A stretch of DNA of 64,000 bases from an uncultured Methanosarcinaceae archaeon (GTDB taxonomy: Archaea; Halobacteriota; Methanosarcinia; Methanosarcinales; Methanosarcinaceae). Position 1 is the stretch's first letter. Each line of letters opens with the position of its first letter. Below are positions 3,886 through 51,418 of the stretch, piece after piece. The translations under genes and the position numbers were made by a program. The stretch is from the NCBI GenBank assembly GCA_963721455.1, contig CAVRJG010000052.1, positions 128,001 to 192,000 on the forward strand. Direction: 5' to 3'. The notes under the pieces were generated by a model. That model did not search any database. It worked only from the letters and a program-made list of their open reading frames with translations, and had not been told where the DNA came from.

Positions 3886-3960
3886 TAGCGGGGGATGGAT
3901 TCGAACCATCGGTCTACGGGTTATGAGCCCGTCGGGATCTCCTGGCTACCCCACCCCGCT
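3886..3960 (-). tRNA. tRNA-Met (initiator, CAT), copy 1
   Basis: Reverse complement is AGCGGGGTGGGGTAGCCAGGAGATCCCGACGGGCTCATAACCCGTAGACCGATGGTTCGAATCCATCCCCCGCTA: A1:U72 pair, GGG/CCC anticodon stem, CAT anticodon, TTCGAAT T-loop. Confidence 0.95.
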
Positions 3961-4022: not shown

Positions 4023-4097
4023 TAGCGGGGGATGGATTCGAACCATCGGTCTACGGGTTATGAGCCCGTCGGGATCTCCTGGCTACCCCACCCCGCT
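4023..4097 (-). tRNA. tRNA-Met (initiator, CAT), copy 2
   Basis: Identical to copy 1 and part of a 137-bp tandem duplication. Confidence 0.95.
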
Positions 4098-41677: not shown

Positions 41678-42493
41678 GTGACAACCATGAAAGCCGCCTG
41701 CATCCAGATGAATATCTCCCTTTGCTCAAAGCATGAAAACCTTGAACGTGCCCTCTTCCTGGCAGAAGAAGCGGTTTCAAAAGAAGCTGAGTTACTTGTC
41801 TTTCCGGAAGTTTTCTCAACAGGTTTTTGTTATGACCGCATAAGGGAGGTGGCTGAAACTGCTTCCGGTCCCACTCTCGAAGCTTTATGTGATTTTTCAA
41901 AGGAACATGGGTGTATTCTTGCAGGTTCAATGATCGAACAGAGAGAAAGGGATGCAATAAGTACAGAAAAGCAGGTTCCTTCTCAGTTCAACCTGGGTTT
42001 CTGCATCGAATCCGGAAAGCTAGCCGGTATCCACCGGAAAACCCAGCTTTATGGTTCAGAAAAAGAACACTTTGCACTTGGAGACCGGATCTCCCCTATC
42101 AGGCTGCAAAAATACGGGCTTTCAATCGGGCTCATAGTTTGTAACGAACTCCGGTATCCTGAAGTTGCCCGAAAACTGGCTCTTGAAGGAGCAGATTTGC
42201 TTGTTTCGGCTGCCGACATTCCTGACTTTTATATATATCCCTGGCGCATTATGTCCATTTCCCGAGCGCTTGAAAACCAGCTGCCGCATATCGCCTGCAA
42301 CAGGGTTGGGAAAGACAGGTATTCGACTTATCCGGGCAGCTCTTTTATTGCCGACGGCTGGGGCCGGATTCTGGCAGAAGCCGGAAAGGAAGAATGCGTC
42401 CTGATAGGGGAAATCGATCTTGACGAGGCAAAGGAAATCAGGCAAACTGGCTCAATTCTCGAAGACCGCAGAACTGACCTTTATTTAATCTAG
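41678..42493 (+). CDS. Carbon-nitrogen hydrolase (nitrilase family)
   Basis: E-K-C triad: VFPE, HRKTQL, IVCNELRYPE. Confidence 0.9.
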   Translation: MTTMKAACIQMNISLCSKHENLERALFLAEEAVSKEAELLVFPEVFSTGFCYDRIREVAETASGPTLEALCDFSKEHGCILAGSMIEQRERDAISTEKQVPSQFNLGFCIESGKLAGIHRKTQLYGSEKEHFALGDRISPIRLQKYGLSIGLIVCNELRYPEVARKLALEGADLLVSAADIPDFYIYPWRIMSISRALENQLPHIACNRVGKDRYSTYPGSSFIADGWGRILAEAGKEECVLIGEIDLDEAKEIRQTGSILEDRRTDLYLI

Positions 42494-42690
42494 AGTCTTT
42501 TTAATTTTTTCTGGTTTTTCTTCAATTTCGAAAAAATCATGAAATTTCATCGTAATTTGAGTAAACCAATTGACTCATTTTGGAAAAGTTGATTCATTCC
42601 TGCAAAATTTTATACAATTATTCACTACGTTACTTATTTTTGTGGAAATTTTCATTAGCTACCGCTATAGGAATCCAAGTTTGGATTGAA

Positions 42691-43588
42691 TCCACTTTCC
42701 GCAGGTGCGACAAGAAGCTATACTATGAATCGCGCCATTACGCTACCTCTTCCATTTGAGGTAATCCTATTGTGACATGCATAAATGGTAACGTTTGTGT
42801 GTGGAGCTTCACATGACAATATCAAGAAATCAAGGAGCCTGACTTTGATAATTGGTTAGGATAAGAATACTATGAAGAACGTAAAGTGAACCATCGTAAG
42901 AATCGTGAAGTGGGATAAGCGCAAAGCAGGTTGATGCGCTTAACCAAAAGGTACAGAATCGGGCTATAATGGGTCTGCGGACATTATGGCAAATGGACAA
43001 ATGATTCTCGGTTTATAGATGGCTTCTAAGGTATTCACATTATTTGTAGTATAGAACTTGGTAAGCCCTAAATGCTCCCATAATGGGTATGACTCCCGCG
43101 AGGGATAACGATGGCATTGAGGGTGAGAGGATTCAGTAAAAAGCGAATGCCAATCTGTAATGGATTGGACAGAGGTTCAAACTTTGCCTCAATCCGAAAG
43201 GATGCAGACTTACTGATGGTGTTTTTTTTTGTGTGAATGGAAACAAACCTACAAATGTAAGATACTCAACGACACCAATAGGTGAGAGGCTTACAGACAA
43301 TTATGTTAGTGGGCTGTTATCCGGAATCACAAAATCAGTTATGCAAATAACTGGTGCCTGATACAGAAAGGGTTTGAAAACACTCGAGCCGTATGAAGGG
43401 AAACTTTCAAGTACGGTTCCTAGGGGAGAAAGGAGGAGTAATCCTCCCTACTTACCCGACATGTACACAAGAATGCCACCGATTTTCCCTATCTGGCAGT
43501 CGTTCAAAAATTAACTCCTCATTTGATAAGTTATTTTGGACAAGTCGGCAAATTAATTCTACATCTGTGTACATCTGCGGAATGTCGG
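42691..43588. mobile_element. IS1634-related MITE (about 142 bp when empty) interrupted in its left TIR by a group II intron
   Basis: Joining the intron flanks gives TTCCGCAG|ATGTACACA, the exact inverted repeat of TGTGTACATCTGCGGAA (43566-43582). The right end matches the IS1634 right end at 47770-47792 at 21/23 nt. Confidence 0.8.
42705..43460 (+). ncRNA. ORF-less group II intron (IIB-like)
   Basis: 5' end GTGCGA. Domain V GAGCCGTATGAAGGGAAACTTTCAAGTACGGTTC with AGC triad. Domain VI ends ...CTTACCCGAC. The EBS1 loop CTGCGGA pairs with exon TCCGCAG. No RT ORF. Confidence 0.92.
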
Positions 43589-43715
43589 TTTTACACTGTA
43601 CTTATCTATTTTCACAAACAGACTCATCGATTTAATTCCAAAATAATTATATGTTGCCTAGGTTATTTCGTAACCGGTCCTAAGTAAATTGAAATTGCCT
43701 CATCATCAAAAATAA

Positions 43716-44495
43716 TTAATTTTTCAATTTTACATATACTGAAGTATCTTCGATCTTTGTTTCCAGAATCTCGTTGCATTCATTTTTTATAAGGTTCATC
43801 AATTTTTTATGACCATAGGTGCGGGGATCAAAGGAGGACTTTATTTTCTGAAGGTTCTGGTTTAGTAAGGAAAGGTGAATCCAACTGTCTGCAGTATCTG
43901 CCATTTCATAGGCTGTTCTGATCAAGGAAAATAGCTCTTCCTTGTCGTTTATTCCCTGTTTTTCAGATGTTTCTATTATCTCATTCTCTTTCTCGTTTTC
44001 TGTAGGGTTCATCAGGTTTTCTACATACACAAAAAGTTCACAAGCATTGCTAAAAGCTTCAGGAGTCTGTTTTTTCCCTATTCCCATGACAAATTTGTTA
44101 TCTTCCCTGAAACGGGTGGCAAGCCGGGTATAGTCACTGTCACTTGAGACGATTGCAATACCGTCTATGTTTCCTTTATGGAGAATGTCCATCGCATCTA
44201 TTATCAGAGAACTGTCCGTTGAGTTCTTCCCAGTGGTATACGCAAATTGCTGTTGAGGTGTGATCGCCTTCTTGTGCAGGTATTGTTTCCAGGAACTCAT
44301 TTGTTGGTTTGTCCAGTCTCCATAAATCCTTTTAACGGTTACGATCCCGTATTTTGAAACTTCTGTTAGAATCGGTTCTAAAGAATCAGGCTGAGCATTG
44401 TCTCCATCAATTAGGACGGCAATTTTCCGTTCAGTTATATGGTAGTAGTTTCCGCGCTCCTCTATCCAGGTTTTAGCACCTACTTCAGAACTCAT
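43716..44495 (-). CDS. NYN domain (LabA/DUF88 PIN-like) protein with C-terminal OST-HTH/LOTUS domain
   Basis: AVLIDGDN, GKNSTD, IVSSDSDY and FDPRTYGHKKL. Confidence 0.88.
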   Translation of the reverse strand: MSSEVGAKTWIEERGNYYHITERKIAVLIDGDNAQPDSLEPILTEVSKYGIVTVKRIYGDWTNQQMSSWKQYLHKKAITPQQQFAYTTGKNSTDSSLIIDAMDILHKGNIDGIAIVSSDSDYTRLATRFREDNKFVMGIGKKQTPEAFSNACELFVYVENLMNPTENEKENEIIETSEKQGINDKEELFSLIRTAYEMADTADSWIHLSLLNQNLQKIKSSFDPRTYGHKKLMNLIKNECNEILETKIEDTSVYVKLKN

Positions 44496-44617
44496 AAATT
44501 AAGTAATATTTCTATCTTTTATTTATACCATATAGTTTTAAAGTCAGACTGTTGGCTGGAGGCGGTTTTTGTCGTTTTATTTGTATCCTCTTCAAATTGA
44601 GTGGAAAGCTTTCAATT

Positions 44618-45865
44618 TCAACTCAATGAGCTTTTTTCTCTAATGAGTTGAGCCAAAGATGGCATCTCAAATGTATTGCTCACTCTATCACATATGTACT
44701 GATATGCACTTATACTCAGTTTCTTTGCAGTCTGAACAATCGTCATAAATGTGTCGTTTGCCTTTGTCCCTTCATCTGTTATGGTTTGAAGGCTCACATC
44801 TCTTTTTCTAACCTTTGCTCTCGCCGCTAGTTCCGCTGCATTGTTATGCAGTGGAACTTCTGGTAAAACCAGTACTTTTAACAGATGTCCCTTGTTCTCT
44901 TTCGTCTTACCTATTCTTTCATCCAACTGTTCATATCCTGTTATAGTCGAAAACAATTGATCAAACTTAATGGATAATTGCTCCGCTACCTCTGAATCTG
45001 GTTTTATTCTAAACTCACAAAGTTCCCCATAAAAGTCCCAGTACCTGTCCAGAAAAGCTTCCAGCTTTTCTTTAAAATAAGGTACTATTGGCCTCAATTT
45101 CTTGTAGTTTCTCCCATCATGAATCCAACAAAGAGCATGATGTGATGCAATCTGCTTGAATTGACGTGCATCATCACTCAGAAGTGTGGTAACCACAGGT
45201 ATGTCTGTACTTTGATGATATGCCGCAATTGCACAGGCTTCAAGAACTTTCTTCTTAGTAGTTTTATACCCTTTGAGTGAGAAAACACAATCCAGTTTTC
45301 GACGCATTTCTTCATCACTGAATATTTTGTTTTTAAAAGAAGAGAGCTTTTCCATCCAGATTTGGGAAACATTAAACGTTTCCATCAGATCAAATGCTTC
45401 ATCATTAAAGCAGTACGTTTTTTCTTTTCCACATAGAAGTATATCTAAAATGGTTTCCCTATTCTTATTGGGAACTGTAAAATAAGCAGCATAATAAGGA
45501 TTACAAAGAATTTGAGTATAGTGATTGACACCATTGACTCTTGCACCTGTATCATCAATCTGCTGATAAGGCGTAGCCTTAAGACCCTCAAGAAAAATCT
45601 CAGCTTTTTCCTGATGGAAGATATCAGTATCTTTTGTCAAAATTCGAGAAATAGTGGCTCTGGATATATGAACACCAATATTTTCCAGAAATTCATGTAT
45701 TTTGGGCTCTGAAACATTAGCAACATGGTTAAGAGTGATTATAAGAGATTTGATTCCAGGGCCAAATTCACCTTTGATACCATGTGGCAATTCTCCTGAA
45801 TATGTTTTATGCTCAGAAGGAGAATAAAATATCTCTATCCTGTAGTTGGTGTTCACAGGCTTTAT
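44618..45865 (-). pseudogene. IS66-like transposase, 5'-truncated by the IS1634 element
   Basis: QIDDTGARVNG, LSDDARQF, HALCWIHDGR and PLHNNAAE. The reading frame begins abruptly at the IS1634 left end. Confidence 0.8.
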
Positions 45866-47792
45866 CAGACTTTCCGCATATCTCGGATTATTATTCAGAC
45901 ATTTTTATTGGAAAACTGTAAATAATGTAACTCGCTATTGAATTTTTGAATTTTTATGCACATTACTACTAACGCCCTGGACCATCACGGTATAGTTTGT
46001 GGAATTTTCGATGAACTTGAAATTGGAAGTATTATCGATGAAGTGTTTCCCAAAGTTGGGCAGCATAAGTTAGCTCATTCAATAGTGATAAAGGCAATGA
46101 TTCTTAATTGCCTTGGATTCACTGACAGTCGACTTTACCTGTACTCTCAATATTTCGAAAACCTTCCAGTTGAAAGGTTACTTGGTCCTGGAGTTAGTGC
46201 ATCAGATCTTAATGACGATGTTTTAGGGCGAACTCTTGATAAGATATACGAAGTAGATCCTACTCAACTGTTCATGAAACTTTCCATGAGAATGATGGAA
46301 ATTGTGAACCTTAAGGTTATACAACTTCATTGTGATGATACCAATTTCAGCGTTCATGGAGACTATGAACCTGAAGACGGTAGTTCTGCCATAGAACTCA
46401 CTTATGGTCACGCGAAAGATAAGAGATATGATTTGAAGCGTTTTTCAATGGGGATGATTGTAAACCAGTATGGTATGCCATTATTTACACAGGCTTATTC
46501 TGGAAATTCATCCGACAAAGAAACCATAGTAGAAGCCATGAAAAGACTTAAAGAAAACATAGAGTTCCCTGATGATGTTTATTTCATAGCTGATAGCTCT
46601 CTGTATTCTGAAGATAATATCAAAGCATTAAAAGACATGAAATGGATCACTCGCGTTCCCTCAACTCTGAATCTTTGTAAAGAGCTACTGACTTCTGATC
46701 TTGAGTTTAAACAGGGAGAAGACCCACGCTACTCATTTTATGAAACGATGGTTGAATATGGTGGCATAAAACAAAAATGGATAGTTGTTCACTCTGCCGA
46801 GATGCATAAAAGAAAGGAAATTACGTTTGAAAAGAAAATAAAAAAGATAGTCAAGGAAGCTCAGAAAGAGCTTAAAGAGCTGAAAAAAATAGAGTTTGCA
46901 TGTGAAGAGGACGCAAGAACAGCCCTGGAAAGATGGAAAAAGGAAAACCCTTACTGTTTGCTGGAAACGGTGGAGACCTCCACAATCTCAAAAAGAGAAA
47001 ACGGTAAGAAGGGAAGGCCAAAAAAGGGTGAAAAGCTTGTCATTCATTATGTTGTAGATGCAAAGGCTATCAGAAATGAAGAAATCGTACAGCATGAAAA
47101 TGAGTATCATGGTAGATTTATAATCGGCAGCAGTGACCCCAATCTTGATGCTGACGATATGCTGGAAAAATACAAAAACCAGAGTAAAGTGGAAAAAGGA
47201 TTCAGGTTCATAAAGGACAAAAGTTTCAGGGTTTCTGAGGTTTATCTTAAGAAACCCGAAAGAATTGAAGCGTTATCAATGATCATGGTTTTAACTCTGA
47301 TGGTTTACTCGGTAGCAGAATGGAAGCTGAGAGAAAAACTAAAAGAAACAGGGGAATCAATACCGAACCAAGTTAAGAAACAAACTCAAAAGCCGACATT
47401 GAAATGGGTTTTCATGCTGATGAGGGGGATTACGGAAGTGGAAGTAAAAACGAAATCAAAAACTAAAATTCAAATTACCAACTTGGATGAAATTAAAGAG
47501 AAGTTAATAAGGTTGATGGGAAAGAGTTGTGAAAAATACTATTTTTGAGATGAGGGTATAAGCTCTTTAAATAAAATATTTCAAGGGTTTCAGATAGCAC
47601 AAGTAGCGGATGCTGTTATATAATTCAGGAAATACCAGTTATACAATTATGAAAAATATGGGCATAGTGACAAATTCAGTTTGTGCTGTGTTTAAGAATC
47701 AACTAACTTGCCATAACAAAGGTCAATTATTATTGAACAGTAAAATATGTAATAAAATAATTTTATTTTTGTGGACATTTGCGGAATGTCGG
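45866..47792 (+). mobile_element. IS1634-family insertion sequence
   Basis: Imperfect TIRs CAGACTTTCCGCA / TGCGGAATGTCGG flank the transposase. No target-site duplication is visible. Confidence 0.85.
45956..47548 (+). CDS. IS1634-family DDE transposase (intact, 530 aa)
   Basis: LDHHGIVCGI, HCDDTNFSVHG, YGHAKDKRYDLK, IADSSLYS and VEKGFRFIK. Confidence 0.92.
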   Translation: MHITTNALDHHGIVCGIFDELEIGSIIDEVFPKVGQHKLAHSIVIKAMILNCLGFTDSRLYLYSQYFENLPVERLLGPGVSASDLNDDVLGRTLDKIYEVDPTQLFMKLSMRMMEIVNLKVIQLHCDDTNFSVHGDYEPEDGSSAIELTYGHAKDKRYDLKRFSMGMIVNQYGMPLFTQAYSGNSSDKETIVEAMKRLKENIEFPDDVYFIADSSLYSEDNIKALKDMKWITRVPSTLNLCKELLTSDLEFKQGEDPRYSFYETMVEYGGIKQKWIVVHSAEMHKRKEITFEKKIKKIVKEAQKELKELKKIEFACEEDARTALERWKKENPYCLLETVETSTISKRENGKKGRPKKGEKLVIHYVVDAKAIRNEEIVQHENEYHGRFIIGSSDPNLDADDMLEKYKNQSKVEKGFRFIKDKSFRVSEVYLKKPERIEALSMIMVLTLMVYSVAEWKLREKLKETGESIPNQVKKQTQKPTLKWVFMLMRGITEVEVKTKSKTKIQITNLDEIKEKLIRLMGKSCEKYYF

Positions 47793-50151: not shown

Positions 50152-51418
50152 GGCAGTGTACCGAAAGTTCTGTAAAATATGATTGACTCTGTATCCTTTT
50201 CTTTTCACCACAAAAAAACAGGATGCAGAGTCAATGGTTAATTTATTCTCACTTATAAAAGATTATCTTGTCGATCAGGAAGATGGAATTCGCCAGCTAA
50301 TTACCTGGTTTTTAAACCTTATAATGGAGGAGGAAGCCCTCCTCCAAGCTGGCGCACAACGTTATGAGCGGATTGATTCACGTAAAGCCAGTAGAAATGG
50401 CTACAAACCCCGAACTCTTCTGACCAAGCATGGAAAACTTGAATTGTCAAAGCCTCAATTCCGTGAGTTTCCCTTTGAAACCCAGGTTTTTGAGAAATAT
50501 TCGAGAGTTGAAAAGGCCATCTTAACCGCTATAGCGGAATCTTACCTTCAGGGTGTTTCCACCCGAAGGGTGGAAAAGATCATGATCGCTTTAGGAGTAG
50601 GTGAAATCTCAGCCTCTTCTGTTTCCAGGATTACTAAAGAACTGGATGAAAAGGTTGAAGAATTCCTCTCAAAACGAATAGAACATGAAATTCCTTACTT
50701 GTTATTGATGCGACTTATTTCAAGGTAAGAGATGGGCTTCATTATGAAAACAAAGCTCTCTTCGTAGTTGCTGGAATCAGGGATGACGGTTACCGAGAGA
50801 TACTTGGAACAAGATTGGCAGACAGTGAAGCTTCTATGTTCTGGGAAGATCTATTCGAGGATCTGAAAGAAAGAGGGTTAAGAGGTGTCAAGTTAATCGT
50901 TTCTGATGGTCATAAAGGAATACAGAAAGCAGTCAGAGAATCCTTTATTGGATCAAGTTGGCAGATGTGTCATGTACATCTGACAAGACAAGTTCTCAAG
51001 AAGGTGCCAAAAAAGAAGCAGAAAGAAGTGGCTGAGAAGATAAAAGAAGCATTAGTCGACCGTCAGAACTTGAATCACCTGATTAGGGAACTGGACAGTA
51101 TGGGGTATAAAAGCGCAGCTGATACCCTTGAAAGTTTTCAATATGATGTAATGAACTATATGCAGTTTCCAGAAAAACACTGGAAAAAAATAAGGACAAC
51201 AAATATGATGGAAAGGACTAACAAGGAACTCAAAAGAAGAAGCAAGGTAGTTGGAGCATTTCCTAACCAGGACTCAGTATTGAGACTTGTAGTCTCAATA
51301 CTAATTGATATAAATGAAGACTGGATCACAGGAAACAAGTATATAGTAATGGAACAGTAATCAAAAAAGAAGACGAAGGGGTAGAGAGTAGATTTTACAG
51401 AAAATTAGGCACACTGCC
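50152..51418 (+). mobile_element. IS256-family element with frameshifted transposase (50234-51360)
   Basis: TIRs GGCAGTGTACCGAAAGTTCTGTAAAAT / ATTTTACAGAAAATTAGGCACACTGCC. RNGYKPR, GVSTRRV, VSDGHKG and RTTNMMER motifs. Frameshift near 50703. Confidence 0.9.

What the first reader, a model, noticed from the sequence alone, without database searches (positions are those of the whole stretch)
42691..43588. ORF-less group II intron whose exon-binding sites target the terminal inverted repeat of an IS1634-derived MITE
Seen in sequence: the intron runs from GTGCGA (42705) to CCCGAC (43460). Splicing it out restores TTCCGCAG|ATGTACACA, a perfect 17-bp inverted repeat of TGTGTACATCTGCGGAA at 43566-43582, so the host is a ~142-bp MITE. 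The MITE right end matches the right end of the intact IS1634 at 47770-47792 (21/23 nt). The hairpin GCTATAATG-GGTCTGCGGA-CATTATGGC (42963-42990) presents EBS1 CTGCGGA, exactly complementary to the last 7 exon nt TCCGCAG. AAGTGG (42908-42913) is complementary to the adjacent CCACTT (IBS2). Established: ORF-less group II introns occur in Methanosarcina and were described homing into related intron ORFs. Inference: this ribozyme has been retargeted to a multicopy transposon end. It would be a retroelement parasitising or hitch-hiking on a DNA transposon family, and insertion would break the TIR at DNA level. The opposite MITE end (CCGACATTCCGCAG) keeps IBS1 but mismatches IBS2, which may explain the choice of end.
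Basis: partly seen in the sequence, partly recalled or inferred. Interest (0 to 1): 0.88.

Follow-up and report, generated by a model that had tools for sequence, protein, structure and literature searches.

The report
Intron homing into transposon end repeats
A self-splicing group II intron that has lost its own reverse transcriptase sits 14 bases inside the end repeat of a 142-base miniature transposon, and its relatives across this archaeal genus use the same site, a lifestyle already described once in bacteria.

Summary
Window 42705-43460 is a 756-nt ORF-less group II intron with Rfam D1 and D5/D6 hits. It lies 14 nt inside the left terminal inverted repeat of a 142-bp MITE. Uninterrupted copies of that MITE exist in this genome and in other species.

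All 13 full-length ORF-less copies and all 3 RT-encoding copies in the genome sit inside transposon end repeats. Fifteen of the 16 are exactly 14 nt inside IS1634-family ends. One is 23 nt inside an IS256-family end.

EBS1 and EBS2 covary with the end-repeat variants. Ends that pair fully with EBS2 are preferentially occupied. The same junction occurs in 15 of 59 genomes of the genus.

Caveats:
- The window copy carries 9 private changes.
- Its MITE has no target-site duplication.
- Flanks of several copies are shuffled, by recombination or misassembly.
- Splicing and mobility were not tested directly.

Novelty is limited. RmInt2 in Sinorhizobium meliloti already targets the inverted repeats of ISRm17. 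Thermosynechococcus ORF-less introns home into an IS. This is a new variant: archaeal, CL-like, ORF-less, with MITE hosts and two IS families.

The parts
42691..42704 (+). Left terminus of the MITE (14 nt), which is the 5' exon recognised by the intron. IBS2 CCACTT is at 42692-42697 and IBS1 TCCGCAG at 42698-42704.
   Evidence: Sequence. The same 14-nt terminus class lies on about 100 IS/MITE ends in the genome. It pairs 6/6 with EBS2 and 7/7 with EBS1 (read; EBS1 7/7 also, whose automatic EBS2 parse failed for this copy).
42705..43460 (+). ORF-less group II intron, 756 nt
   Evidence: Rfam RF02012 and RF00029 hits. Starts with GTGCG. Twelve further full-length paralogs in the genome.
42744..42855 (+). 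Domain 1 core segment
   Evidence: RF02012 group-II-D1D4-7, 63.1 bits, E = 1.3e-10.
42908..42913 (+). EBS2 (AAGTGG)
   Evidence: Complementary to 42692-42697. Paralogs and orthologs with AAGCAG or AAGTCA sit at termini with the matching IBS2.
42963..42990 (+). EBS1 hairpin. EBS1 CTGCGGA is at 42975-42981 in the loop.
   Evidence: Fold. Compensatory changes: CTGCCGA with TCGGCAG, and TACAGAA with TTCTGTA.
43016..43016 (+). Candidate EBS3, with 42935 as the alternative. It is T where the first 3'-exon base is A, and C where it is G.
   Evidence: Column comparison of six intron variants. Inference only; no structure model places it.
43384..43460 (+). Domains 5 and 6, with the bulged branch-point A at 43454
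   Evidence: RF00029, 63.5 bits. Fold -33.2 kcal/mol, z = -3.79.
43461..43588 (+). Remainder of the 142-bp MITE (3' exon), with the right inverted repeat at about 43565-43588
   Evidence: Empty relatives are 81-94% identical.
45866..47792 (+). IS1634-family insertion sequence with related termini. These termini end in ...GCAT and ...GCAA, so each has a mismatch to EBS1 at position -1. Both ends are unoccupied.
   Evidence: Transposase 45956-47548: NCBIfam IS1634, 404 bits; Pfam DUF4277 plus DDE_Tnp_1. Ends read.
50152..51418 (+). IS256-family element. Its end repeats carry the unoccupied target of a second intron lineage of the same family.
   Evidence: NCBIfam IS256 on two ORF pieces. Ends. 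An intron sits at this position in C49.

Best explanation
The window holds one copy of a family of group II introns. Their natural homing site is the outermost part of the terminal inverted repeat of DNA transposons.

Target recognition:
- The intron RNA recognises nucleotides 2-14 of the IS1634-family end. EBS2 pairs with 6 nt and EBS1 with 7 nt.
- It reverse-splices between positions 14 and 15, always reading inward.
- Any element carrying that end is a target, whether a 1.7-1.9 kb IS or a 140-280 bp MITE.

Mobilisation:
- The 756-nt copy here has lost the reverse-transcriptase ORF of domain 4.
- I infer that it and its ORF-less paralogs are, or were, mobilised in trans by the RT/maturase of the three RT-encoding relatives in the same genome.
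- That RT has no detectable endonuclease domain. Priming would therefore come from replication forks, as in RmInt1 (inferred).

Consequences (inferred):
- Insertion separates the outer 14 nt of the repeat from the rest and so probably disables that transposon end at DNA level.
- The intron needs read-through transcription from outside the element. Here that could come from the same-strand nitrilase-family gene ending 197 nt upstream.

What is shown: anatomy, copy distribution, covariation, empty sites and conservation across species.
What is inferred: splicing, trans-mobilisation, En-independent priming and loss of transposon function.
For: Where the copies sit:
- All 16 full-length copies in the genome lie at transposon ends. 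Ten ORF-less copies follow ...TTCCGCAG. Two ORF-less and three RT-encoding copies follow ...TTCGGCAG. One ORF-less copy lies 23 nt inside an IS256-family end.
- Uninterrupted elements with 6-bp target duplications define these 14 nt as the true element terminus. Examples are C39:262326-262575 (AAACAT), C53:121977-122227 (ATGAAA), C39:235355-235602 (TTAGAA) and C61:12185-12444 (CTATAG).
- Three intron-bearing elements keep intact duplications: C71:26844-27844 (TAATAT), C15:59908-62310 (TTTTAT, RT intron) and L011 from another species (ATCTAA).

Covariation between intron and target:
- EBS1 CTGCGGA pairs with IBS1 TCCGCAG, CTGCCGA with TCGGCAG, TACAGAA with TTCTGTA and TTACAGA with TCTGTAA.
- EBS2 AAGTGG pairs with IBS2 CCACTT, AAGCAG with CTGCTT and AAGTCA with TGACTT.
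- Of 25 parsed junctions, 23 give 7/7 EBS1 pairs.

Site choice follows EBS2 pairing:
- For the ORF-less introns, 8 of 9 unique occupied ends give 6/6 pairs, against 3 of 18 empty ends (p = 5.8e-4).
- For the RT intron, 3 of 3 occupied ends do, against 12 of 68 empty ends (p = 0.008).

Recent spread: eight ORF-less copies are identical or differ by 1 nt. They lie in different hosts: two MITE families, both ends of one of them, and an IS. This indicates recent independent insertions.

Source of RT:
- The RT ORFs are open in all three copies. They carry RVT_N, RVT_1 and GIIM and no HNH domain. TIGR04416 scores 353.7 bits.
- The best solved relative is 6ME0 chain C, 508.7 bits.
- The ORF-less RNAs keep homology to the RT intron through about nt 599. 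That reaches past the ORF start at about nt 516.

Distribution: the junction occurs in 15 of 59 genomes of the genus and 2 of 6 of a sister genus. The MITE family is widespread.

Environmental reads: contigs from three metatranscriptome studies cover the intron. A head-to-tail joint of exactly 43460 to 42705 stands in one RNA contig and one probable-DNA contig. Head-to-tail copies were also reported for RmInt2.
Against: - No direct evidence of splicing or mobility. No read spans ligated exons.
- The window MITE has no target-site duplication. Its left flank is a truncated copy of another roughly 200-bp repeat. The 14-nt left terminus may therefore have arrived by recombination between intron copies or by misassembly.
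- The assembly is a 73-contig draft with eight near-identical 749-nt repeats. C44 and C71 share flanks but hold different intron variants.
- The C30 left junction and the C52:225384 right junction belong to one insertion but lie on different contigs.
- The window copy differs from its closest paralog at 9 positions. At all 9 the other copies agree with each other. It may be decaying.
- For three copies (C30, C13, C8) I could not assign the 3' flank to any element.
- The resident RT introns are only about 83% identical in RNA to the ORF-less family, so trans-mobilisation by their protein is unproven.
- Three perfectly matching ends remain empty for the ORF-less introns, and 12 remain empty for the RT intron.
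- The head-to-tail joint also stands in a run guessed to be DNA, so it does not show RNA circles.
Confidence: 0.85

Rival explanations
1. The window copy is an inactive relic. The lineage targets transposon ends, but this copy no longer splices or moves. Its present flanks result from later recombination or assembly error, not from insertion into this very MITE.
For: - Nine private differences from the nearest paralog, including four indel columns in D1-D3.
- No target-site duplication, and a left flank that is a truncated unrelated repeat.
- Demonstrated flank shuffling at other copies.
Against: - The 5' GTGCG, EBS1, EBS2, D5 and D6 with its bulged A are all intact.
- The spliced element is a full-length 142-bp MITE, 94% identical to an empty copy in another species. 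That is not expected from a random join.
- The left terminus fits the MITE family's left-end pattern.
Confidence: 0.35
2. The intron copies spread passively as cargo, by DNA transposition of intron-bearing MITEs or ISs, rather than by retrohoming.
For: The intron lies between two inverted repeats, so an element that still transposed would carry it. C71 and C44 share both flanks.
Against: - Identical introns lie in unrelated hosts and at either end of one MITE family.
- The two intron-bearing copies of the window's MITE family are about 74% alike in their MITE part, while their introns are 96% alike.
- EBS/IBS covariation and the bias towards good IBS2 matches are expected from reverse splicing, not from transposition.
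- C71 and C44 share 286 nt beyond the MITE, which indicates a duplication or alleles rather than transposition.
Confidence: 0.05
3. The conserved 14 nt upstream are carried along with the intron, by exon co-conversion or read-through, and are not a pre-existing transposon end.
For: Occupied ends are enriched for one terminus variant, CCCACT. Four copies also share AAT just upstream.
Against: - The same 14 nt end dozens of intron-free elements bounded by target duplications.
- C71 keeps its MITE family's own mismatched terminus, CCGACC.
- Empty ends with the CCCACT variant exist.
Confidence: 0.04
4. The intron has been recruited by the host or by the transposon as a regulator. For example, it could act as a switch that disables ends at DNA level while transcripts stay intact.
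For: Eleven of 29 TTCCGCAG-type ends are occupied. Insertion splits the repeat.
Against: There is no evidence of selection for occupancy. Copies decay (C25 and C12 have a mutated 5' splice site). MITEs encode nothing to regulate. Ordinary selfish spread explains everything seen.
Confidence: 0.05

Closest known systems
RmInt2 of Sinorhizobium meliloti GR4, which targets the inverted repeats of ISRm17 (PMC4615759; passages read)
   Same: - A group II intron whose copies all lie within the inverted repeats of a multicopy IS, giving two sites per element.
- Recognition is by EBS1, EBS2 and EBS3, and EBS2 mismatches are tolerated.
- The RT has no endonuclease domain.
- Head-to-tail intron copies occur, explained there by an EBS3 U pairing with the intron's first G. 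That fits the joint seen.
   Different: - RmInt2 is bacterial, class D and RT-encoding.
- Here the RT's best solved relative is 6ME0 chain C. That this chain is the chloroplast-like TeI4h protein is my recollection, not a tool result.
- Here most copies are ORF-less, hosts include MITEs, and two end variants plus a second IS family are tracked by EBS changes.
- The host is an archaeon.
- I did not see where within the ISRm17 repeat the RmInt2 site lies.
Thermosynechococcus elongatus TeI3/TeI4 introns (PMC2882425; passages read)
   Same: - ORF-less derivatives are mobilised by the RTs of related introns.
- One ORF-less family sits at a conserved site in an IS (ISEL1, IS200 family).
- Targets are recognised almost entirely by RNA pairing.
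- Exon shuffling by recombination between intron copies is reported.
- The RT of the present family scores 508.7 bits against 6ME0 chain C.
   Different: - The passages I read say only 'a conserved site' in ISEL1, not an end repeat.
- The host is a thermophilic cyanobacterium.
- No MITE hosts are reported.
RmInt1 and ISRm2011-2 (PMC1802570; passages read)
   Same: The natural homing site is a multicopy IS. The RT lacks an endonuclease domain. The intron is found in related species in ISs of the same group.
   Different: The passages I read call the IS itself the homing site and give no position within it. No terminal repeat or MITE is mentioned.
Nested group II introns of Methanosarcina acetivorans (Dai and Zimmerly 2003; paper not held, known only from the review PMC4424553)
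   Same: The same genus, ORF-less and RT-encoding relatives, and site-specific homing into other mobile DNA. The review notes that the flanking exons hold no coding ORFs.
   Different: The behaviour described there is homing into related intron ORFs. The review does not mention transposon ends. A genome of the genus with 5.8 Mb in one contig (G001) has two of the end/intron junctions. I do not know whether that genome is M. acetivorans.

Membership tests
Group II intron ribozyme | Conserved 5' end GUGYG and 3' end AY | tested here: met
   GTGCG at 42705-42709 and ...GAC ending at 43460.
Group II intron ribozyme | Domain 5 with catalytic AGC, and domain 6 with a bulged branch-point A | tested here: met
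   RF00029, 63.5 bits against a gathering score of 40. The fold shows a bulged A at 43454.
Group II intron ribozyme | Domain 1 core structure | tested here: met
   RF02012, 63.1 bits against a gathering score of 34. The same hit occurs in paralogs.
Group II intron ribozyme | EBS1-IBS1 and EBS2-IBS2 pairing with the 5' exon | tested here: met
   7/7 and 6/6 pairs here (read; EBS1 7/7). Compensatory changes occur across paralogs and species.
Group II intron ribozyme | Self-splicing or protein-assisted splicing activity | not testable with these tools
   Only indirect evidence: intron-covering RNA contigs and a head-to-tail joint at the exact intron ends.
Mobile (RT-encoding) group II intron | RT/maturase ORF in domain 4 | tested here: not met
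   No ORF in the window copy. About 1.39 kb is missing relative to the 2143-nt relatives. The copy is therefore an ORF-less derivative.
Chloroplast-like (CL) / IIB intron class | RT groups with CL-class proteins | tested here: inconclusive
   The relatives' RT scores 508.7 bits against 6ME0 chain C, and 153 bits against LtrA. No phylogeny was made. The class of 6ME0 is recalled, not taken from a tool.
Chloroplast-like (CL) / IIB intron class | EBS3-IBS3 pair with the first 3'-exon base | tested here: inconclusive
   Two candidate positions (43016 and 42935) covary with the +1 base. They are not placed in a structure.
MITE | Terminal inverted repeats, small size, no ORF | tested here: met
   142 bp after removal of the intron, with a 17-nt perfect repeat.
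MITE | Multicopy family with uninterrupted members | tested here: met
MITE | Target-site duplication | tested here: not met
   None at the window copy. Present in the paralog at C15 and in 4 of 7 copies from other species.
MITE | Ends shared with an autonomous IS | tested here: met
   21 of 23 positions match the IS at 45866-47792. The same terminus class lies on elements L001, L003 and L005, which encode IS1634-type transposases.
IS1634 family | Transposase matches the family model | tested here: met
   NF033559 scores 404 and 390 bits against a cut-off of 100.
Introns homing to IS inverted repeats (RmInt2 type) | All or most copies lie within the inverted repeats of a multicopy IS, at a fixed position set by EBS/IBS pairing | tested here: met
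   16 of 16 full-length copies.
Introns homing to IS inverted repeats (RmInt2 type) | Demonstrated retrohoming into the cloned repeat | not testable with these tools
   Shown for RmInt2, not here.

The most novel reading that the evidence does not exclude
The retroelement and the DNA transposons are in a co-evolutionary chase. Insertion splits the end repeat 14 nt from the tip and disables that end. The intron would then act as a hyperparasite that selects for escape variants of the transposon terminus (TTCCGCAG, TTCGGCAG, TTCTGTAG, and the ...GCAT/...GCAA ends of the still-intact IS in the window). Intron sublineages follow by single EBS1/EBS2 changes. They have even jumped to the end repeat of an unrelated IS256-family element. 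Transposon-end diversity in this genus would then be shaped in part by group II introns.
Probability: 0.2. Interest if true: 0.75.

Novelty: new variant of a known kind. Interest (0 to 1): 0.5.

Why it matters
The case shows, with many natural replicates in one genome, how a group II intron family lives on other mobile DNA. The target is the one part of a transposon that must stay conserved, and MITEs share it with ISs. A non-autonomous retroelement can therefore multiply inside non-autonomous DNA transposons.

The matched EBS and end-repeat variants form a natural series for studying retargeting by RNA pairing alone. The DNA upstream of position -14 is random flank, so the protein can contribute little there.

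If the split repeat really disables the end, the introns also limit these transposons.

For annotation it explains two things. Exons flanking Methanosarcina introns look non-coding. Intron repeats can also shuffle flanks or break assemblies.

I found no report of this in archaea in the searches. The principle itself is in print for bacteria.

Tried and rejected
- Orthologous empty site. I searched the genus with the 3' exon plus 612 nt of right flank. Only the MITE part and a second repeat matched, and no locus matched throughout.

- Target-site duplication of the window MITE. None was found under any choice of end. A 7-nt resemblance of the right flank to the continuation of the left-flank repeat was too weak to use.

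- Ligated-exon reads. Four runs were laid and none joins 42704 to 43461. These are contigs from environmental samples whose flanks differ, so this says nothing either way. The parts without cover are not evidence.

- Tandem intron DNA. A search in this genome and in the fetched loci found none.

- EBS3. Only candidates were found.

- RT class. I made no tree, only a comparison with solved structures.

- Promoters. The scan tool covers bacterial sigma-70 sites only and was not run.

- Automatic EBS parsing. It failed for 27 of 52 junction candidates, and it picked the wrong EBS2 for the window copy. The window values come from reading.

- Literature. Dai and Zimmerly 2003 is not held. Supplementary files were not consulted. 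Figure S1 of PMC4615759, which shows the ISRm17 sites, was not seen and may bear on how similar the two cases are.

Full report
WHAT IS THERE

A 756-nt stretch, 42705-43460, starts with GTGCG and ends with ...CCCGAC. Rfam places a group II domain-1 model at 42744-42855 (RF02012, 63.1 bits) and the domain 5/6 model at 43384-43460 (RF00029, 63.5 bits). Both are far above their gathering scores.

Domains 5 and 6 fold as expected, with a bulged A at 43454, 7 nt from the 3' end. The proposed EBS1 lies in the loop of a stable hairpin. The intron holds no ORF of 60 aa or more, apart from an 80-aa frame that starts near its 3' end and runs on into the MITE.

Removing the intron leaves a 142-bp element, 42691-42704 plus 43461-43588. 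Its ends are a 17-nt perfect inverted repeat, 20 of 24 when extended. Its right end matches the right end of the nearby insertion sequence in 21 of 23 positions. That IS (45866-47792) encodes an IS1634-family transposase: NCBIfam 404 bits, and Pfam DUF4277 plus DDE_Tnp_1.

THE HOST IS A REAL MITE

- The window's own genome holds an uninterrupted paralog about 80% identical, bounded by a 6-bp duplication.
- Other species of the genus hold many copies.
- Seven that I inspected are 141-143 bp and 81-94% identical to the intron-less window element. Four of the 7 have perfect 6-bp duplications.
- I found no orthologous empty site.

EVERY COPY SITS IN A TRANSPOSON END

The genome is 3.94 Mb in 73 contigs. 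It holds 13 full-length ORF-less copies, two fragments, and three 2143-2148-nt copies with an open RT/maturase frame.

- Ten ORF-less copies follow a terminus ending in TTCCGCAG.
- Two ORF-less copies (one duplicated locus) and all three RT copies follow the variant TTCGGCAG.
- In each case the intron starts exactly 14 nt inside a sequence that ends about a hundred intron-free elements elsewhere in the genome.
- Those elements are 1.7-1.9 kb ISs with IS1634-type transposases and several MITE families of 140-280 bp. Many have 6-bp duplications that fix the terminus.
- Three intron-bearing elements keep intact duplications. Two are in this genome, one of them with the RT intron. The third is in another species.
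- The thirteenth ORF-less copy is 80% identical to the window copy. It lies 23 nt inside the end repeat of an IS256-family element. An unoccupied member of that family lies in the window at 50152-51418.

COVARIATION BETWEEN INTRON AND TARGET

| Intron site | Intron sequence | Target sequence |
|---|---|---|
| EBS1 | CTGCGGA | TCCGCAG |
| EBS1 | CTGCCGA | TCGGCAG |
| EBS1 | TACAGAA | TTCTGTA |
| EBS2 | AAGTGG | CCACTT |
| EBS2 | AAGCAG | CTGCTT |
| EBS2 (one other species) | AAGTCA | TGACTT |

Among 25 junctions that my script could parse, out of 52 candidates, 23 give 7 of 7 EBS1 pairs.

- For the ORF-less introns, 8 of 9 unique occupied TTCCGCAG-type ends pair 6/6 with EBS2, against 3 of 18 empty ones (p = 5.8e-4).
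- For the RT intron the figures are 3 of 3 against 12 of 68 (p = 0.008).
- The empty right end of the window MITE pairs only 4/6.

Kin are not independent, so these p values are rough.

SPREAD BY RETROHOMING, NOT AS CARGO

Eight ORF-less copies are identical or differ by one base. They lie in different hosts: two MITE families, both ends of one of them, and an IS. The two intron-bearing copies of the window's MITE family are about 74% alike as MITEs, while their introns are 96% alike. This fits a recent burst of independent insertions.

The ORF-less RNAs keep homology to the RT intron past the ORF start. That region usually holds the protein's binding site; this point is recalled, not tested.

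The RT has RVT_N, RVT_1 and GIIM domains and no HNH domain. Its best solved relative is 6ME0 chain C at 508.7 bits. I recall that chain as the Thermosynechococcus TeI4h protein.

Trans-mobilisation by this protein is an inference. The RT introns are only about 83% identical in RNA to the ORF-less family.

DISTRIBUTION

- Some match to the intron occurs in 45 of 59 genomes of the genus.
- The exact end/intron junction occurs in 15 of 59, and in 2 of 6 genomes of one sister genus. It occurs in none of the other 14 genera of the family. The reversed control gave 0 hits.
- Among loci fetched from other species, 10 of 17 with a 5' junction carry the TTC[C/G]GCA[G/C] terminus and two more carry a TTTTGGCAG variant. 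The 5 with other targets are relatives at 79% identity or less.
- RT relatives 85-93% identical in protein sit at the IS1634-type end, at the IS256-type end or at other sites. Retargeting is therefore fast.
- Record titles of these relatives name Methanosarcina and allied genera.

ENVIRONMENTAL READS

Contigs from three metatranscriptome studies cover the intron but hardly its flanks. One RNA contig and one contig of a run guessed to be DNA join 43460 directly to 42705. This genome has no such tandem copy.

The RmInt2 paper reports head-to-tail intron copies. It explains them by an EBS3 U pairing with the intron's first G. That fits the A at +1 of most targets here and my two candidate EBS3 positions. 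RNA circles would give the same joint. Either way the joint marks the same two intron ends. It is a hint, not a mapped splice site.

WHAT DOES NOT FIT

- The window MITE has no target duplication, and its left flank is a truncated copy of another repeat.
- The left junction on C30 and the right junction at C52:225384 are the two halves of one insertion into a third repeat, sharing the duplication ATTGAA. They now lie on different contigs.
- C44 and C71 share flanks but hold different intron variants.
- C59 has a duplicated flank plus the first 166 nt of the intron.
- Recombination between near-identical intron copies would explain all four. Such recombination is reported for Thermosynechococcus and for M. 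acetivorans. Misassembly of a draft genome across 749-nt repeats would explain them as well. I cannot tell which applies.
- The window copy differs from its nearest paralog at 9 positions where all other copies agree. It may be an old, decaying copy even though its known functional motifs are intact.

COMPARISON WITH WHAT IS KNOWN

The principle is in print. All copies of RmInt2 in S. meliloti GR4 lie in the inverted repeats of ISRm17. The authors note that this doubles the number of sites. RmInt1 homes to ISRm2011-2. In T. elongatus, ORF-less introns are mobilised in trans, one family sits at a conserved site of an IS, and targets are read almost wholly by RNA pairing.

New here, as far as my searches show:
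- the archaeal host;
- the CL-like lineage;
- the predominance of ORF-less copies;
- MITEs as hosts;
- the position at the very tip of the repeat, so that the protein sees only random flank upstream;
- a set of sublineages matched to end variants and to two unrelated IS families.

A review says the exons flanking the M. acetivorans introns hold no coding ORFs. I could not read the original paper.

VERDICT

The finding is a new variant of a known kind, of moderate interest.

Noticed in passing
window 50152-51418: An IS256-family element whose transposase is split into two ORFs. Its roughly 27-nt end repeats hold the unoccupied target of a second intron lineage with EBS1 TACAGAA. That lineage sits 23 nt inside such an end at C49:4669, with a 46-nt fragment at C50:20012. 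Eighteen further ends in the genome are empty. RT-encoding relatives in other genomes (L027, L029, L085, L087, L088) use the same site, shifted by one base.
   Followed up: yes
G000 C30:14368 and C52:225384 (outside the window): The left junction of one intron-bearing element and the right junction of another are the two halves of a single insertion into a third repeat, sharing the duplication ATTGAA. The cause is either recombination between intron copies or an assembly chimera.
   Followed up: partly
G000 C44:153336-154614 and C71:26851-28130: Flanks that are identical on the 5' side (286 nt, 100%) and about 98% alike on the 3' side (230 nt) surround two different intron variants. One differs from the window copy at 31 positions, the other at 9. 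Possible causes are alleles of a mixed population, conversion or misassembly. Beyond the intron, C44 continues into GC-rich DNA.
   Followed up: no
G000 C59:1250-2600: A tandem duplication of 204 nt of flank, the 14-nt terminus and the first 166 nt of the intron lies ahead of the full copy.
   Followed up: no
window 42705/43460, in runs X19 (RNA) and X1 (guessed DNA): Contigs join the last intron base directly to the first. These are head-to-tail copies or circles in environmental relatives. No such junction exists in this genome.
   Followed up: partly
window about 42490-42690 and 43589-43684: Both flanks of the MITE are themselves members of other short repeat families. The left one is 87% identical to C39:145198-145402. 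The right one is found in many species of the genus. The region is a nest of small repeats.
   Followed up: partly
window 45866-47792: The intact IS1634-family element next to the MITE has termini ending in ...GCAT and ...GCAA, not ...GCAG. Each would mismatch EBS1 at the base next to the insertion site, and both ends are empty.
   Followed up: no
L040 (Methanomethylovorans MAG) and L024 (G010): In L040 an RT intron follows a terminus ending in TTCTGTAG, which still pairs 7/7 with EBS1 CTGCGGA through two G-U pairs. In L024 the EBS2 is AAGTCA, which matches that element's CTGACT terminus exactly.
   Followed up: partly
window 3886-3960 and 4023-4097, minus strand: Two tRNA genes with identical score and length lie 62 nt apart.
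   Followed up: no
window 43716-45856, minus strand: A NYN plus OST-HTH/LOTUS domain protein (43716-44495) and an IS66-family transposase ORF (44618-45856) lie between the MITE and the IS1634 element.
   Followed up: no
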